NCBI GenBank assembly: GCA_000934665.2
Contig: KZ538092.1
Location: 62,001 to 126,000, forward strand
Direction: 5' to 3'
Origin: Catajapyx aquilonaris
Taxonomy: Eukaryota
Length of the DNA stretch: 64,000 bases
A model generated the notes under the pieces. It did no database searches and was not told the DNA's origin. It saw nothing but the letters and a program-made list of their open reading frames with translations. The number at the start of each line of letters is the position of its first letter. Within the stretch, counting starts at the first letter, position 1. A program made the translations under genes and the position numbers. Shown here one piece after another: positions 5,831 through 21,800 of this stretch.

Positions 5831-8669
5831 ATGGCGACTCAGTCGATTCCAGTTTCGGAGGTGATACGTCGTAAGGACGAGTTCCAGGATGAGCCAAAGA
5901 AGAAGACCAGGGAGGACTGGAGGAAGGCCAAAGAGCTCGAGGAGGCCAGGAAGGTAAAAATGCTAAAACAAAAATTCATAACGGAACATATAATTATTGA
6001 AAAGAAAGAAAAAATGTGTAGCCTATTTGCATTATAAAGAGATTAATTCACCAAATTACACCAACAGGCCGGAACAGCCCCAGCGGCTGTGGATGAGGAA
6101 GGGAGGGACATCAACCCGCACATTCCGCAGTACATCTCAACAGCCCCGTGGTACTTCGGCTCCGAGGGGCCTACTTTGAAGCATCAGAGGCCGCAGCCGG
6201 AGAAGCAGCAGGAATTCTCACGCCTTGATGAGTGGTACAAACGAGGAGTCGACTCGGTATGGACACAACCTGTAATACATTACGTGGCTATTATTACCAT
6301 TGTTTGCGTTTTCCAGAGCAAGTTGACTATCAAGTATCGGCCTGGAGCCTGCGAAAATTGTGGCGCAGTCACTCACAAGAAGAAGGACTGCATGGAACGC
6401 CCGAGGAAAGTGGGAGCCAAGTTCACAGGGGCGGACATCGCTCCTGATGAGTTTGTCCAGCCAATGCTGTCCATGGATTACGACGGAAAGAGGGATCGCT
6501 GGAATGGGTACGATCCAGTAGAGCACAGGGCCATTGTTGACCAATATAACCAGATAGAGGAGGCCAAGAGGCAGCTCAAAGCCAACAGGCTGAAGAAAGG
6601 TGGGGAAGGAGATAATGGCGAAGATGAGGTGAGTTACTTTCAACTGCAGTATTATTTATTTTGCCATCTTATGCGGATATGCGCTTAATTTTGCAATGCT
6701 GTATCGCTGCAATCGCTCACATGTAAACACGGCGTCATAGCTGTTTTATAAAGGAAGGGATTGCCCGTGTATAATTTTGCACAGCATAAGCATATCAAAA
6801 TGAAAGGAAAAAATAACGTGTAACCTACATCGGAAAGGAGAGTGAGCATCACCTCATAATATTATATGGGGTGGGCCACTCTCAGCTGTTTCTCACGAGA
6901 CGGCTGGCCCCCTTTCCCAGAGTAAACTGTGAAGGGTCTCTGGGTCTGAGTGTTTCTAAGTGCGCTTAGCCCTCGTTCCCTAATCGCACATTTTTAGGTA
7001 TGATACAATGCGGATGACTGAAAAACAGTCATTCCATTTTTAATTCAGGAAATGGCTGTGGCTTGACCACTACTGATTTATGTGTGGTTTCTTTCTAATC
7101 GATCACATGAGAGTCATGTCTTATTAACTGAGCCCTTGTTGCAGGAAGGAGGTGAGGAAGGCGAAGAGGAAGATGAAGACAAGTATGTGGAAGAGGCTGA
7201 CATGCCGGGAACCAAGGTGGACAGCAAGCAGCGTATCACTGTGCGTAATCTCCGCATCAGAGAGGACACTGCCAAGTATCTCCGCAACTTGGACCCCAAT
7301 TCGGCATACTATGATCCTAAAACTCGATCGATGAGAGACAATCCTTACAAAGACCTCCCCGGTGGTGGTAGAGGAGGAGATGGAACCGGAGGAGGGGAAG
7401 AAGAGGTGGCCTATGCGGGAGAGAACTTTGTGCGATTCACTGGCGACACCGTGTCGCACTCAAAGGCACAGATATTTGCATGGGAGGCGTACGATAAAGG
7501 TGTGGATGTCAATTTGCAAGCTGAGCCCACCAAATTGGAGATGCTGCGGAAGGAATTTGAGAAGAAGAAGGACGACTTCAAAGGTAGCCTCCAGCAGAGT
7601 GTGTTGGAAAAGTACGGTGGGGCTGAACATCTCGATGCTCCACCCAAGCAGTTGCTTCTTGCTCAGACGGAAGATTACGTCGAGTATTCTCGTCATGGAA
7701 AAGTCGTTAAGGTAAGATAATACCTTGCACATGCGGACATAAACTGACTGTTAGTACAGTTTGAGTAAGAGTGTTTATGGGAATTTTTCAGGGCCAAGAG
7801 AAGCAAATAGTGAGCTCCCGTTACGAGGAAGACATTATGATCAACAACCACGCTTGCGTGTGGGGCTCCTACTGGAGAGCAGGGAGGTGGGGCTTTAAAT
7901 GTTGCCATTCCTTTGTCAAGAACTCCTACTGTACAGGAGAAGCAGGAAAGTCAGTGGCTGCCGTTCCACTGTTGCCTATTATGCCAGGACCTTCTACGTC
8001 CATCCAAGGTGAACAGGAACAGGCTGAAGAGGGAGAAGTGGAAGAGGAGGAAGAAGAAGAGGAGCCAAAAACTTTGGTTGAGGTGTGTTGTGGTTCTTAA
8101 TTCTTCTAGTATCTAGTGTCATAACCTGTTTTAACACTTTCGTTGACGTACATTAGATACATCGAGAGAAACAGGAGAAGGAAGCAACTGAGAAGAACCT
8201 GAAAAACCGCAAGAAGAAGGAGAAGCGACGCAGGCTGCGGGGAAAGAAGAAGGTTGCTCATGAGTCGGATTCTAGCAGCAGTAGCAGCGACTCAGAAGAT
8301 GAAGACGTCAAGAAAAGGAAGAAGCTCAAGGAGGTGAGCTTTCATTCGTATGCATACTGGTACATGCAAAGACAAGGCTTTTGCAGTTATTTATTTGCAT
8401 ATTTTCATACAACACAGTCTAGTGCCACGTACTTGTGGCCATTTGTACATGAGCAAATTAGCTCAATAGTTTAAATGCCACTTTCTTATTTGCAGGCCCT
8501 ACTTCGGGAAGAGTTCTTACAGGCTCAGGCAGAGAAGGACCTGGCAATTGATGACAGGAAGCGGGCGTACAATAGCCGTTACGAGGTGAAGGCACCTACG
8601 GAAGAGGAGATGGAGGCCTATTACATGAAGAGGGCCAGAGCGGAGGACCCCATGGCAGACTTTCTGTGA
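5831..8669 (+). CDS. SLU7: Pre-mRNA splicing factor SLU7 (~610 aa)
   Basis: Exons 5831-5953, 6068-6256, 6317-6628, 7145-7711, 7792-8082, 8157-8333, 8496-8669, all GT-AG, 1833 nt in frame. Motifs [10 protein letters not shown], zinc knuckle [40 protein letters not shown]. Confidence 0.97.
6990..7040 (+). mobile_element. Possible 3' end of a Helitron/Helentron-derived (HINE-like) insertion in SLU7 intron 3
   Basis: Stem-loop GGATGACTG-AAAAA-CAGTCATTCC followed by a T-run; this intron (516 nt) is much longer than its neighbours. Confidence 0.35.
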
Positions 8670-9094
8670 TTAGGAGGCGTTTCCAGAAGCTAGGTTACGA
8701 CATTGCAAGTCGCAAATGACGGATTAAGATTCACCTGCGTGGAAGGAGACACTATGAAGTAACTTGCAATCAAAGCTGGGGAGAAGGTCTGGTGTAAATA
8801 TTGTAAATGTGTACATATTCTATGAGCCATAAATGTAGTGTGTGTAGAAATTTTTTGGTACCCACCGAATTAAACTGGATGTCATTATTTGCGATACTCC
8901 TTTCGTGATAATGCATTTTCCTTCTCTGGACCAAGTTACTGACAATGGATTCCAGTGTCGAAGAACTGATGTTCAGAATTAAGCCAAAGATATTAAGACA
9001 TGATAATAATTTATTTAACGCAAAGACAATGTACGACAAGAATCTTACAAATAAGCAGACAGGAATATGATTTTGTATGATGTACAAGGTGCTT

Positions 9095-11615
<2,521 letters not shown>

Positions 11616-11979
11616 TTTTGCCAAAATAGTCGCGAAAAAACGTCAGGAAAACGAAATTCGCAAAATGTACACTGCAGAGCGCGTCCGAATATCCCTACCA
11701 GTGTTGCCAACAGCAGCTTCATTTCAATTGGGCATAAAATTACAGTTGTATTTAGCTGTATATCCGCAGCGTTTTTTGATATTGTATGATTAAATGTACA
11801 TGCTAATTTTATTAATATGATTATTCTAATTAGAAATAGTATTGGCAACATGTGTTATTCTGACAAAATTTTCGGACGACCCCGAGTCACTTTTCAAGAT
11901 GGCGGACGACATTACGCTGATTGCAACATGAAATCGAAATACTTTTAAATTGCGACTTACGGATGAGGCATAACTCGAC

Positions 11980-12684
11980 ATGACAGTGCGTAATAGCCTG
12001 CTGCTCCTTCCGTGCTTCTTGTGCGGAGCTATTGCGGCCATAAATTCAAAGGTGTCCGGCGTAGGGGACGGGAGTTGTCCGGACAACAACTCGTGTCAGA
12101 AGCAGTACGAGCCTCATTCTCCTCTCGTGAAATGCGCGTACTTGTGAGTAATTATGGTTTTTGCAAGTGTCATTATGTAGCCGTGTAAACAATTGTTGAT
12201 TTCAGACCATTGGATTTTCTGGACTGCGAAGAACCTGTGGATCATAAGGGTAATAAGACAGCCAAGGAGGAGCTGGGATATGGCTGTGTTAAGGTACTTT
12301 TCTTCACTGGTTGTACTGTACAAGGTACTTATTAATTTTATTTGACCCATTCAGTTTGGCGGGCAGCGATATGAAGATGTAGAGAAAACAGCTGTCCGCT
12401 GCACGGTCTTGCCGCATATCGAGTGCTATGGAGACAGGAGCTTTCCCAGAGAAGGGTTTCCGTGTATGAAGTACACGGGGCATTACTTTGCAACCACTTT
12501 GTTATACAGCATTTTGTTGGGATTTCTTGGAATGGACAGATTCTGTCTCGGACAGACTGGGACGGCAGTTGGGAAGCTTCTGACATTGGGAGGTGTGGGG
12601 ATCTGGTGGGTTGTGGACATTGTGCTTCTGTGCACTGGTGGACTTATGCCCGAAGATGGAAGCAATTGGATGCCCTACGTGTGA
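11980..12684 (+). CDS. TM2D2: TM2 domain-containing protein 2-like (~193 aa)
   Basis: Exons 11980-12143, 12206-12293, 12355-12684 (582 nt). Signal-peptide-like N-terminus; TM2 domain [38 protein letters not shown]; ends PEDGSNW. Confidence 0.92.
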
Positions 12685-13226
12685 GTGCGACGTTACCAAT
12701 TAAAGCACATGGAATTGCAGATATGCATTTTTATTCTGCTGACATCAACCCAGCCTACACATAGGGAAATAAATTCTCTGTTGGAAGCATCACATTTTTA
12801 CTGGTCCACATCGTTGCCTCAAAACCTGGCATTAAATCAATAACAAACTTAATTTTAAAAAGGGCCTTTGAGAATACAATGATAATAGTTGTGTTCCCAA
12901 AGGCCAAAAATTGTGCGATGTCACATGATATTGAAACAAGGGTTACAATAATTGATAAATCTGCAGTACTTTAAAAATTTTAAAAAACCAGTCGAGCCTT
13001 CACAGCAAGCAATTATGTTTGTGTGCTCAAATATATGATCACATAGGAACCAAAGTTATAAGCAGAGAAGTTGGGCAACTGGAATGCTAGTCTTTATCAC
13101 ATTGAACATCTGAGTATTTTCAGTCCTTTGCAAAATGCAGAGAACTGCTGAGACATGCTCATAAGAGAGATTTTTTTTTCCAAAGTCGTCATCTTTTTAA
13201 TCCAACCGAGTTCACAGACGGGACAG

Positions 13227-15031
13227 TCAGTCCAGAACCAGTTCAGTCTTGCTGTCCTTAGTCACAAGCTGAACCAGACTTCCGCTTGGTGGCCGGTCTT
13301 CACCTTTGGTCCACTTCATCATCAACCTGGAAACAAGACAACAATTTTTAGTTTAGTACAAATATTTGAGTTTCAACAGAGAGCATTTGTATATCAAGTG
13401 ATTATACTTACTCGGCTACAAATTCAAGTGATGTCCAGGTTGTGTGGTCAGCTTTTGGCATCCACTTGCGATTCATTGGGGTGTCGAGTGTAACTGGAAG
13501 GACAGCCACGGCCAATGCCTTTTCAGGAAGTCCACTGCCTTTACCTGCCAGAGACTTGACCAGCTGGTGAACAGCAGCCTTGGCCATTCCGTAACCAATC
13601 ATTCCTGAGGAATATCAATGACATGTTACTTGACAGCATGCAACTTGACCAGACGTACGCTTAATTAAAGCAACAGTACCTGGAGTTCCATCCAGTGCAG
13701 CTTTGGCTCCAGGGAGGGAAACAAGTCCTCCTTCCTTCAAGTGCTTGGCAGCCACTTTTGCTGCGATAGTTGATGACCACACACTCTGCTTCCACATCAG
13801 ATCTGTCGCTTTGATTAGGTCTGGAAATATGTTAATTTGTGTGTTGTACCGATTTAGGCTTTCTATTAAAAGATATAAATTTGCCTACATGCAATAGTGT
13901 GCTTCTTGCCAACTTTGTACATGTCAATGGATGAGCTTACTCAAGCTGTTTATCAAGTTTCGATTATCAAATGGCGCTACAATTATACGCAATTAATTAC
14001 AGCACATCATGCCTGTGTTTGAATAGACAGCAATGCATGACCAGTTTGTGTTCATTTGGACTCGACCGACTCTAATATTGTACGCACCATCAGCAGCAGC
14101 ATTTCCTCCAGCCCATCCTCCAGCCACGCATATCACAGCATCCACTTTCTCTCCTTTCAGTGCTTCTTCAATGCTAGAACACACCGATGCTGACTGAAAG
14201 AATTCAATTCAAAGTTTGTAAGATTCCAGACACTAACACTGAAGGGAAGGATTGCATAGCACTTTAGCGTGTGAGCATGTGGTACACATTTCTTAGAAAA
14301 TATGCTATCACAGTATGATATAGTCTGCAGGATTTTGCTTTGGTCCACCAATATTTTCAGTACAAATAGTGCTTGATAGTGCGCTAAAAGGACTATCATT
14401 GAAAATGAGCATGTCCAAATTGCCTCTCTTTGGGGGGGGTCACATCTATCACTTTTATTGCCACCCTTCTGTTATCTGCAAAGATGAACTTTGGCCTGAA
14501 TCCAATTTCCCCCACAGAAAACTGTGCCAATGAGTTGGTACGGCCACTGTAGGTTAGGAACACATCATAGCCCCAAAAATACTCCTCATGAAATTGCTGT
14601 CACATGAACTTATATGTACTTCATACTGTCACGGATCTTAGCATATTACGCACCAGAGATATTAACGGTCGCTTTAATATCTATGTTGGAACTGCTTGGT
14701 ACTATTCATCTTTTACCATTTCTTATCAAGCGAATAAACTGTACGCTTGTGCTACATGTACCTGATCACCCCATGCGTCTTCTGGCTTCACGACAATATT
14801 GGCATCGGCTTGCTCATTCGGAGAGAGGTCGATATTGCCCACCCACTGAAATAAAAAAGAAATGTAGTTTACCTCTACGTATGACTTAGCTACATGCAAT
14901 GATTAATTGCAGCAATAAATTCAATCAATTTACTAGTTACATACCCATTTGTTGGCCTTGAAGTGCGAGATACAGGCGCTTCCCAGAGCTCCTTTCCCTC
15001 CGTACACCAAGACACGTCCAACCATCGCCAT
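13227..15031 (-). CDS. QDPR: Dihydropteridine reductase (~236 aa)
   Basis: Exons 15031-14945, 14845-14762, 14193-14088, 13820-13680, 13604-13412, 13326-13227 (711 nt). Motifs [59 protein letters not shown]. Confidence 0.96.
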
Positions 15032-18800: not shown

Positions 18801-21800
18801 TGCTATGCAAACACAGTGGGCGCATTCAGATAGCGCAAGGGTTGAAGGGCTGGCCCAGGGCCAAGGCCTTTTGGCGTTTTGGGAAACTTTGCTCTAGTGC
18901 ATTTTCAATTGCACAAATGTCATCTGACACCACAATGTAAACAACTTGATTTCTTGACCAAGTGCATTTGTATTTATTGGAAAGTAATTGCTTAAAAATC
19001 ATTAACAGGTCAAGTCGAAGTGATGAGTCTAGCGGTATTTAAAAAAAGTAGAGGGGCCGTAATGGGACTTGGGGAAGAGAGAATAGCCAAGGTTGAGGTT
19101 GGTTTGAGGGCCTCGGAGACTGTTTTGGGAATATTGGCTTGTGGCCAAAGAGGAGAACATGCTGAGTAATGGGAGCCAGGGCTCAAATCAAGACTAAAGC
19201 CACCCATATGTTCATTTTTTTTTCCTCACCATATGATGTGATTGACTCAATTATGGGGAAAGGAATTTGATTAGATGTTTCAAACTGGAGGTTTAGCACA
19301 CGAAGGAGCCCATTATAAACATTTGCTATATGCCACCATGTTCTGATTGGTGTTTTCAATGTGAACTGTGATTACATTAGTGCTATAATGGATCAGGAAG
19401 TGTCACTCAATTTAGGAGAACTGGAGGATATAGAATGTGCACGTTTGCAATACCTACGGACTTTTCCAACATTGCACGCATTATTTGGTTGAATGCTTGT
19501 GTCAGGATTGCCTCCAGATTTGCAAGATAGTAAGCAGTATCAGAATCTGTCATTGGCCTGTCGCAATTAACGTGTTTGTATTCATGTACCTTTATCATAA
19601 TATGATCTAATCTGGACTTAGCAGACATACTATTTATGTGAATGTTGGGTTGATTATTCACACTTGCAACAGCCTTGGAACAGATGTCTGGATACATAAT
19701 CAAAACTTGTTCACAAAAGAAAACCTTAAAGTAACCTGGTAATCTCCCTAAAAGCAGCGGCTAGTAAATTGCAAAATAACGCAATTATTGTGTTATTTTG
19801 TAACTTTTTTGCAACATTATGCAACTTTGAGGTTTTCTTTTGTGAAGAAGTTTTGATTATGTAGGATGTGATACTACAAGACAGAAAATAGTACTTTAAC
19901 TGTAACTTTTCTTAACTTGTTTTAATATTTTGGATTGTCTTTTAGGAATGTACCTGTAAGAAGGCCATCTCATTTTCGTTTCCACTTATTGGATGGTTGA
20001 TGATGTTTTTTTAAAAATTGAAAATGGTTAATTTGGCCTGATCAAGTGTGTGATTTGCATGTAACTCAGATCAAGGCCACTTCAGACAACTGCAGGCATA
20101 TCTTTGTTCTGAGATGTTCGAAACGACTGATTGCTGAAAAATATCTGAAACATGATAGAACGTTTGATGGCACAGTACAGGTGCAACTGAGAGCAATGAG
20201 TTCATTTATTCCAAGCTTATCAGATGTGACTAATAGACAGATGTTGGCCCTCACACCCAAAATAGAGGCCTCCTCATCTCAGAAGTTACGTGAACGAATT
20301 TCAGTGTATGAGGAAAGCCTCAATTACTGAACAAGATCTAACTCTGTAGTTAAAATTAATGTTCACACAACTGACCCTAAATGATTTTCATACCTGATGA
20401 CTTTCCAATACTGCCTAAATCCACATTATCTGGTTCCTAAGAAAATATTAGAATGTAGAATATGAAAGTGCATCGTGAGTAGTACGTACACAATTTAATT
20501 GAGTAGAAATTTCCTGTAGTGCCACCTGAAAATGGGTTTCGCTGCATTTCATCATGTTTGATTGCAGTTGAAGTACCCCAATCGAGACGGCTTAGTTGTT
20601 AAAGGAAACATTTACTTGCCACATTGTGTCACAGTGTTTCATGTCCTTTATTTGCTTAGGATAGATCAGTGCTACTATCACATTGACCAGTGGGAATCAC
20701 TGAGCAGCTTATCACTCCACTATACGCTGTTTCCGTTTTCCCCTCTGGAGCTGATATGCCCCTAACCCCTTGCCCATTTGTCCACATGAATTAGTTTTGG
20801 CAAATGCCGCTTCCTTCTATTCCACTCATAGGAGTGAGTTGCGACTCATGCCTGAAGGGGAACTTCCAAGGGCGACGGTACAAGTGTCTGATCTGTTTCG
20901 ACTATGACCTGTGTGCCAACTGCTATGAGGCAGGAGCCTCCACCACCCGACATACCACAGAGCACCCTATGCAGTGCATCCTCACCAGATCTGACTTTGG
21001 TAAGACGCTGTTTTATTTGCTTCCATTTATTATCACCCGAGATCACTATAGTTAATGAAATTTGATTTAATGATTTTGTTGATGTTGCTTACTGTTTTTC
21101 TTTCTCCAGACTTGTACTATGGTGGGGAGGCATTCTCGGCAGAACAACCCCAGTCCTTCACCTGCCCTTATTGTGGAAAAATGGGATTCACTGAGGGGTC
21201 TCTCCAGGACCATGTGACCTCGGAACACACCGAGACCTCCTTTGAAGTTGTATGTGTACTTGGGGGACAGATTGTTATTTTTCACTTCTTTGGGAATTGG
21301 AGGTCTTAACTTGGAAATTTTTCAGGTGTGTCCTGTGTGTGCGTCCCTCCCAGGAGGTGATCCCAATCATGTCACGGATGACTTTGCAGCCCACCTGACC
21401 CTGGAGCATCGCAGTGGACCTAGGGATCTCATATCCTTTTTGTACTGTTGAATGGTTGGTTGTGTTCGTTGGGAATCCATGTTGAGAAATCCTGTGAAAT
21501 AATTTCTTCGCAGAGAAGAACAAAACATAGGTGTCATTCTAAAGTGGCAAAATGCAGTGTATTGCACATTTATGGAACCATGTTTAGGGAGTCGCAGTTG
21601 GTAAAAGGTTGGAAACCACTGGATTATTGATTTGCCATGTGAAAAGGTTGGAAACCACTGGATTATTGATTTGCCATGTGAAATTATAATGCAATCAAGA
21701 GATATGGTGCCTTGAAAAATGTGTAAATTAGGTTTTCCGGCTTATTGAGTGTATATTCCTTAACCATACATCACGATGAGCCCTCAGGGTCACGTCATGG

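What the first reader, a model, noticed from the sequence alone, without database searches (positions are those of the whole stretch)
13212..13229. Hidden peroxisomal targeting signal behind the QDPR stop codon (UGA-CUG readthrough gives ...D-X-L-S-R-L*)
Seen: on the minus strand the QDPR frame ends GTT CTG GAC TGA CTG TCC CGT CTG TGA, so one readthrough event adds five residues ending in SRL. Established: SRL is a canonical PTS1; UGA followed by C is the leakiest stop context, and UGA-CUA readthrough makes PTS1-bearing isoforms of the NAD(H) enzymes MDH1 and LDHB in mammals. Inference: a minor peroxisomal isoform of this NADH-dependent pteridine reductase, implying peroxisomal pterin or redox recycling. 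I do not recall this being described for QDPR. Caveat: the context is CUG, not the stronger CUA(G).
Basis: partly seen in the sequence, partly recalled or inferred. Interest (0 to 1): 0.85.

Follow-up and report, generated by a model that had tools for sequence, protein, structure and literature searches.

The report
Hidden peroxisome tag behind QDPR stop
The gene for a pterin-recycling enzyme (QDPR) ends in a moderately leaky stop codon followed by four codons that spell a classic peroxisome address tag, so a small share of this cytosolic enzyme probably enters peroxisomes, a known trick not yet reported for this enzyme, but nothing yet shows that the cell uses it.

Summary
Confirmed: an intact six-exon QDPR gene ends in TGA CTG, followed in frame by L-S-R-L and a second TGA; a spliced contig from another sample carries it unchanged. 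The motif alone is not beyond chance (about 0.2-1.7 expected per genome), CUG is weaker than CUA, and there is no 3' hairpin. No close relative was available; 70 of 71 distant QDPR loci lack a readthrough PTS1. For it: MDH1 of the same genome has the same five-residue layout; one mollusc-like QDPR has TGA-CTT with an HRL end; 4 of 302 QDPR proteins end in a strict PTS1 against 0.26 expected, including vertebrate-like AHL and hymenopteran AKL/SKM; mouse Ldhb is a TGA-CTG/SRL precedent. No pterin-using enzyme end examined has a PTS1, so pterin recycling is unsupported. Verdict: probable (0.58) new member of readthrough-derived peroxisomal isoforms; untested. Not found in print or earlier in this scan for QDPR; the scan noted this genome's MDH1 case before.

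The parts
14945..15031 (-). QDPR coding exon 1 (ATG at 15031)
   Evidence: contig reaches 15021
14762..14845 (-). QDPR exon 2
14088..14193 (-). QDPR exon 3
13680..13820 (-). QDPR exon 4
13412..13604 (-). QDPR exon 5
13230..13326 (-). QDPR exon 6, coding part up to the regular C-terminus (Asp236)
   Evidence: homologue ends in register
13227..13229 (-). Regular stop codon TGA, candidate readthrough site
13224..13226 (-). CTG directly 3' of the stop: UGA-CU core context, G instead of the stronger A; also the Leu codon of the extension
   Evidence: context from PMC4207609; model score 0.29 against 0.45 for own MDH1
13215..13223 (-). TCC CGT CTG = Ser-Arg-Leu, hidden PTS1
   Evidence: SRL tested as functional PTS1 of zebra finch MDH1x in PMC5133446
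13212..13214 (-). Second in-frame stop TGA, places SRL at the C-terminus
12934..13211 (-). 3' untranslated region as far as contigs of X5 reach; 35% GC, no significant hairpin, no SECIS match

Best explanation
QDPR mRNA gives two proteins. Most ribosomes stop at the UGA and release the 236-aa cytosolic NADH-dependent reductase (gene and mRNA shown). A small fraction, probably a few tenths of a percent up to about 1% (inferred from reporter data on related contexts), decodes UGA-CUG with a near-cognate tRNA (Trp, Arg or Cys; inferred) and adds X-L-S-R-L. The tail projects six residues beyond the last beta-strand (inferred from a model of a homologue), binds PEX5 and brings the enzyme into peroxisomes (inferred). 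There it most likely reoxidises NADH while reducing quinonoid pterins as a local redox function, beside the readthrough MDH1 of the same genome, rather than feeding an aromatic amino acid hydroxylase or NOS (inferred, weakest step). The signal is local to this lineage, one of several separate ways in which QDPR gained a PTS1-like end.
For: Spliced contig holds the motif unchanged. Peroxisome import machinery present: 1 Pex14_N match over cut-off. Own MDH1 ends Asp-TGA-CTA then L-G-K-L-TGA, the same length and layout. UGA-CU is the core readthrough element and A at the third place only adds to it (PMC4207609); its Table S2 lists mouse Ldhb with TGA CTG and an SRL end. L069, nearest named protein Haliotis 73%, has TGA CTT and a ten-codon extension ending HRL; HRL is the PTS1 of yeast Eci1; 1 of 2 TGA-CT loci doing so has roughly 2% chance with the broad set. 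Strict PTS1 ends in 4 of 302 QDPR proteins with a homologous end, 3 lineages, against a column-shuffle mean of 0.26 (P of 3 or more 0.002); broad set 9 of 302 against 1.07. Last strand of the model of P0146 ends at the position of window Leu235.
Against: No close relative tested: best full-length identities about 70-73%. 69 of 71 distinct orthologous loci lack TGA-CT and 70 of 71 lack a readthrough PTS1, including termite-, planthopper-, ant-, midge- and Daphnia-like loci; the three loci nearest L069 in the tree (L022, L026, L038) lack it too. About 0.2-1.7 such motifs are expected by chance per genome, and the human screen's two hits without listed orthologues (CAMK1D, SYNJ2) are both TGA CTG. 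Model score only 0.29; no hairpin, z -0.06; fly top-tier readthrough genes prefer A at +5 and structures. 298 of 302 family members have no strict PTS1; the broad set was fixed after seeing the data and gives 14 hits at an internal offset; hymenopteran ends could follow from stop loss into A-rich UTRs behind a terminal Ala. No PTS1 on 3 of 3 hydroxylase ends, NOS, PCD, 12 of 12 sepiapterin-reductase-like or 2 of 2 XDH-like ends. Fly Dhpr looked diffuse, though with C-terminal tags that mask a PTS1.
Confidence: 0.58

Rival explanations
1. Chance arrangement in the 3' UTR: the stop context and SRL are not under selection. Basal leak may still send a trace of enzyme to peroxisomes, without any function.
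For: 0.2-1.7 such motifs expected per genome; TGA CTG hits without listed conservation exist in human and mouse; absent from 70 of 71 distant loci; weak context, no hairpin; no pterin partner with PTS1.
Against: It falls on a soluble NADH-linked reductase, the class that the confirmed cases belong to; layout identical to own MDH1; PTS1-like ends enriched in the family; second TGA-CT case in L069.
Confidence: 0.33
2. The tail is made and imported, and its role is true BH4 (or tetrahydrofolate) regeneration for a peroxisomal pterin-dependent enzyme such as NOS, imported without its own PTS1; or it recycles products of a peroxisomal molybdo-hydroxylase. This is a variant of the best explanation in the last step only.
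For: A review lists fly Nos as peroxisome-positive and fly XDH as exclusively peroxisomal; Dhpr RNAi enlarged SKL-GFP puncta in fly fat body; an aldehyde-oxidase-like gene of this genome ends in SRL.
Against: NOS, hydroxylases, PCD and XDH-like genes here have no PTS1; the authors of the RNAi study suggested machinery shared by mitochondria and peroxisomes.
Confidence: 0.2
3. The UGA is bypassed by another route: A-to-I editing to a Trp codon, selenocysteine insertion, alternative splicing, or an assembly error hiding a constitutive SRL end.
For: A weak predicted stem spans the stop; contigs drop rare variants.
Against: 0 other letters in X5, X1 and X4; stem not above shuffles, z -0.14; no SECIS family match in 12700-13350; no AG acceptor between the TGA and the Ser codon; homologues end at the first stop.
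Confidence: 0.04

Closest known systems
LDHBx, readthrough-extended lactate dehydrogenase B (Stiebler 2014 PMC4207609; Schueren 2014 PMC4359377)
   Same: Cytosolic NAD(H) oxidoreductase, UGA-CU stop, short extension starting with Leu and ending SRL; mouse Ldhb is listed with TGA CTG.
   Different: Other enzyme family; human LDHB has CUAG and 1.55% measured readthrough; conserved across eutherians, whereas conservation is untested here.
MDH1x (Stiebler 2014; Hofhuis 2016 PMC5133446) and the MDH1 of this genome
   Same: Same mechanism; own MDH1 has the same Asp-stop-Leu-x-basic-Leu-TGA layout.
   Different: MDH1 has CUAG and is conserved across animals; QDPR has CUG and is patchy.
Insect readthrough PTS1 candidates: Drosophila Idh (Stiebler 2014), CG1969/AGAP010769 (Dunn 2013 PMC3840789; Jungreis 2016 PMC5100048)
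   Same: Arthropod metabolic enzymes with a PTS1 behind a UGA-C stop.
   Different: Those rest on multi-genome conservation or ribosome profiling; Dhpr was not found in the passages or held supplements.
Inorganic pyrophosphatase (Stiebler 2014)
   Same: One enzyme family reaching peroxisomes by different routes in different lineages, the pattern suggested here for QDPR.
   Different: Partly tested by GFP fusion for human PPA2; nothing is tested for QDPR.

Membership tests
Dihydropteridine reductase (QDPR/DHPR) | Sequence match to solved DHPRs, intact reading frame, spliced transcript | tested here: met
   about 70% identity to named DHPRs
Readthrough-derived PTS1 isoforms | UGA stop followed by CU | tested here: met
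   TGA CTG
Readthrough-derived PTS1 isoforms | High-readthrough motif UGA-CUA(G) | tested here: not met
   G at +6, T at +7; model score 0.29. Not required by the wider definition of PMC4207609
Readthrough-derived PTS1 isoforms | In-frame extension ending in a canonical PTS1 before the next stop, in the mature mRNA | tested here: met
   X-L-S-R-L-stop
Readthrough-derived PTS1 isoforms | Favourable 12-residue PTS1 context and exposed tail | tested here: inconclusive
   No PTS1 predictor on hand; tail lies six residues past the last strand by a homologue model; resembles the LDHB tails of Table S2
Readthrough-derived PTS1 isoforms | Phylogenetic conservation of context and PTS1 | tested here: inconclusive
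   No close relatives held; absent in 70 of 71 distant loci, 1 independent case
Readthrough-derived PTS1 isoforms | PTS1 import machinery in the organism | tested here: met
   Pex14_N match; PEX5 itself not searched
Readthrough-derived PTS1 isoforms | Measured readthrough above background | not testable with these tools
   needs reporter, ribosome profiling or mass spectrometry
Readthrough-derived PTS1 isoforms | Peroxisomal import of the extended protein | not testable with these tools
   needs imaging or fractionation
Structure-stimulated insect readthrough | Stable RNA structure 3' of the stop | tested here: not met
   z -0.06 and -0.14
Selenoprotein | SECIS element in the 3' UTR | tested here: not met
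   no SECIS among 2 weak Rfam matches at E up to 1

The most novel reading that the evidence does not exclude
QDPR is an overlooked dually localised peroxisomal enzyme of many animals, reached by separate routes: readthrough here and in a mollusc-like lineage, a constitutive A-[HNQ]-L end in vertebrate-like proteins at the position where mammals have AYF, and stop-loss extensions in some Hymenoptera. That would mean peroxisomes hold their own quinonoid-pterin reducing, NADH-consuming activity, kept in many animals and weakened or lost in mammals.
Probability: 0.3. Interest if true: 0.75.

Novelty: new member of a known kind. Interest (0 to 1): 0.5.

Why it matters
The mechanism is known; the cargo is not. 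If real, it adds a pterin-handling, NADH-consuming enzyme to the short list of readthrough-made peroxisomal isoforms, shows that the weaker UGA-CUG context can serve in an arthropod, and points to a peroxisomal role of QDPR that C-terminally tagged localisation studies would have missed. The vertebrate-like AHL forms make the family-wide idea directly testable with a simple GFP fusion.

Tried and rejected
Close relatives: the own genome has no relatives held; the run search listed only organism A, 5 runs in 2 studies, no RNA holder listed; 80 of 114 metagenome loci were returned, none close; a search with the last exon read through gave 1 hit, ending at the regular position. The protein tree does not place the window (no starred set; quick tree only). 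Cluster members and names for the PTS1-ending proteins could not be looked up, so P0242, P0243, P0289 and P0233 are only 'vertebrate-like' by alignment to human and rat DHPR. Rows dropped before the count of 71: L016 and L019 (no tail hit), L007 and L009 (weak, wrong tail hit), L002 (aberrant end), and 4 duplicates. L020 (TAG, TKL end), P0276 (TRL) and P0033 (SKI) were not counted as support. Origin of the tail by duplication of the gene end: no direct repeat. 3' hairpin, SECIS, splice bypass, assembly error: rejected. Hidden PTS1 on two IDH ends and one LDH-like end of this genome: none seen; other IDH and LDH copies were not resolved. Literature: QDPR+peroxisomal+PTS1 0 papers; readthrough+peroxisom+dihydropteridine reductase 2, unrelated by title and abstract start; QDPR+peroxisom 108, top 30 listed, none on peroxisomal QDPR by title; searches gave none either; one search gave 0 papers; PMC2448379 held none of the terms. 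Supplement searches for Dhpr were blank but weak: the fly and mosquito identifiers used were recalled, file 1 of PMC5100048 was not searched, the held files of PMC4359377 and PMC3840789 are small, and the tables of PMC13278127 were not seen. No complex prediction was run.

Full report
Observation. On the minus strand the window holds a six-exon gene (15031-14945, 14845-14762, 14193-14088, 13820-13680, 13604-13412, 13326-13230), all introns GT-AG, with an unbroken 236-codon frame that ends in TGA at 13229-13227 and continues CTG TCC CGT CTG TGA to 13212. Exon 5 matches 7 solved dihydropteridine reductases and one place in the own genome. A 982-nt contig of run X5, from another sample and study of the same organism, covers 12946-15021 with all 5 introns removed and 0 other letters; X1 and X4, which may be the source of this DNA, agree. 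Homologues end in register with the first TGA, so that is the regular stop and X-L-S-R-L can only come from recoding it.

Chance. Random in-frame extensions end in a strict PTS1 in 399 of 127,600 window positions and 96 of 75,879 positions of other own loci; CT follows TGA in 4.9%; 18 of 71 orthologous stops are TGA, 2 of them TGA-CT. That is 2e-5 to 9e-5 per gene, or 0.2-1.7 per genome for an assumed 15,000-20,000 genes. This fits Table S2 of Stiebler 2014 (PMC4207609; I read parts 1-2 of 5 of the text, supplement 5 whole, supplement 4 part 1 of 2), where human CAMK1D and SYNJ2, both TGA CTG, are listed without orthologues, and Mboat2 has TGA CTG in mouse but TGA TCG in human; the authors require conservation to exclude chance. 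The motif alone is therefore not enough.

Strength of the context. UGA-CU is the core element and A at the next place adds to it. In the HeLa reporter table of Schueren 2014 (PMC4359377; section 6 part 1 of 2 and passages), CUAG contexts gave 1.55 and 2.91%, the 4 CUC/CUU contexts 0.13-0.66%, the remaining rows 0.10-0.27%; no CUG row. With that paper's weights the QDPR context scores 0.29, own MDH1 0.45, L069 0.43. There is no stable 3' structure (z -0.06), no SECIS match, no repeat. Passages of PMC5868278 give 0.7% for UGA-C alone in another reporter; passages of PMC13278127 say top fly readthrough genes favour A at +5 and RNA structures, CUAG being a smaller class; passages of PMC12233894 concern CUAG only. 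Expected readthrough is thus low but above background. Mouse Ldhb is listed with TGA CTG and an SRL end, the closest precedent. SRL worked as PTS1 for zebra finch MDH1x (PMC5133446 passages).

Own genome. Pex14_N is present. Cytosolic MDH1 (G000 C501, L083:1888-1905) ends Asp, TGA CTA, then L-G-K-L and TGA: same length and layout as QDPR. I found this before seeing the earlier scan note on it. Earlier notes report many readthrough candidates in this genome (23 fit, 8 shown; not checked by me); abundant readthrough in Pancrustacea is described in passages of PMC5100048. Pterin-pathway ends examined carry no PTS1: 3 of 3 PF00351 hydroxylases, NOS, PCD, 12 of 12 sepiapterin-reductase-like copies, 2 of 2 XDH-like genes. 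Of 4 aldehyde-oxidase-like ends (label recalled from the C-terminal motif), one ends in SRL and a 96.8% identical copy has SRL behind a TAG-C stop.

Orthologues, DNA. Of 80 metagenome loci returned (of 114 found), 75 had a readable stop, 71 distinct; none is close. Two have TGA-CT: L030 (extension of one residue) and L069, a mollusc-like protein (Haliotis 73%) with a ten-codon extension ending HRL and TGA. HRL is the PTS1 of yeast Eci1 (bioRxiv 2024.06.02.597006 passages). The three loci nearest to L069 lack it, and so do termite-, planthopper-, ant- and Daphnia-like loci. The readthrough signal is therefore not ancestral to arthropods; at best it is local and convergent.

Orthologues, protein. 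Of 379 proteins held, 302 have a homologous C-terminal end; 4 end in a strict PTS1 (P0122 AKL, Pseudomyrmex gracilis P0146 SKM, P0242 and P0243 AHL) against 0.26 in column shuffles (3 lineages; P of 3 or more 0.002), and 9 in a broader, post hoc set against 1.07. The first set of 120 had 0 strict ends. All four strict cases are extensions of 2-3 residues over the commonest end. P0242, P0243, P0289 (ANL) and P0233 (AQL) are vertebrate-like and align with the mammalian AYF end; their species could not be looked up. Caveats: related sequences, a broad set that gives 14 hits at an internal offset, and hymenopteran ends that stop loss behind a terminal Ala could produce. An AlphaFold model of P0146 (pLDDT 96.6) ends its last strand at residue 236 of 240, which by alignment leaves six free residues in the extended window protein, more than in the constitutive forms.

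How it most likely works. Shown: gene, spliced transcript, both stops, the tripeptide. Inferred: a fraction of a percent of ribosomes insert Trp, Arg or Cys at the UGA, the extended subunit binds PEX5 and is imported, perhaps with a normal subunit since DHPR is a dimer (recalled); because peroxisomes are 1-2% of cell volume this can give a meaningful local level. The likeliest job is NADH reoxidation with quinonoid pterins as acceptors; a partner is not identified. Passages of PMC7477296 list fly XDH as exclusively peroxisomal and Nos as peroxisome-positive; passages of PMC6750926 report diffuse Dhpr with C-terminal tags and larger SKL-GFP puncta after Dhpr RNAi. I put a selected, functional tail at 0.58 and a chance arrangement at 0.33.

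Comparison and novelty. It works like LDHBx and MDH1x and meets the sequence features of that class except the strong CUA(G) form; conservation is inconclusive, readthrough and import untested. Searches and the supplement searches found no report for QDPR; the library lacks most subscription papers, and supplements I could not see (file 1 of PMC5100048, the large tables of PMC4359377, PMC3840789, PMC13278127) may bear on this. Passages of PMC3840789 and PMC8919083 do not name it. Verdict: new member of a known kind, probable but unproven; interest 0.5, raised by the family-wide hint of an unrecognised peroxisomal QDPR.

Noticed in passing
G000:C173 minus strand, codon starting 126791 (L133) and G000:C1882 minus strand, codon starting 2352 (L130): Two aldehyde-oxidase-like copies, 722 of 746 bases identical at the 3' end: one ends E-S-S-R-L (constitutive PTS1), the other has TAG at that Glu codon with P-S-R-L and a stop behind it. 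Two further paralogues (L131, L132) stop at the same place with no PTS1, which suggests a hidden SRL exposed by stop loss; alleles or paralogues not resolved.
   Followed up: partly
P0242, P0243, P0289, P0233: Vertebrate-like QDPRs end AHL, AHL, ANL, AQL where mammal-like ones end AYF: a possible constitutive PTS1 outside mammals.
   Followed up: partly
P0122 (= L024), P0146, P0161: Hymenopteran QDPRs with 2-3 extra residues end AKL, SKM and SHI; the other hymenopteran proteins listed stop at the usual place.
   Followed up: partly
L069:818-853: Mollusc-like QDPR transcript with TGA CTT and a ten-codon extension ending HRL.
   Followed up: partly
L083:1888-1905 (G000:C501): Own MDH1 has TGA CTA G and a hidden GKL end; noted earlier by the scan.
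   Followed up: yes
G000 contigs C984, C4456, C942, C1102, C5825, C7747: Sepiapterin-reductase-like family expanded to about 12 copies, mostly single-exon, partly in tandem.
   Followed up: no
G000 contigs C8300, C9638, C4849, C1480, C17697: NADP-isocitrate dehydrogenase matches on five contigs, more than the usual two genes; duplicates or assembly pieces not resolved.
   Followed up: no
window 7700-12700 and 20795-21052: Dense neighbourhood: Slu7-like (+), DEAD-box helicase (-), TM2-domain gene (+) whose 3' end faces the QDPR 3' UTR about 250 bases away, ZZ zinc-finger gene (+).
   Followed up: no
window 14340-14690: Short repeated element in QDPR intron 3: other genomic contigs match parts of it at raised depth.
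   Followed up: no
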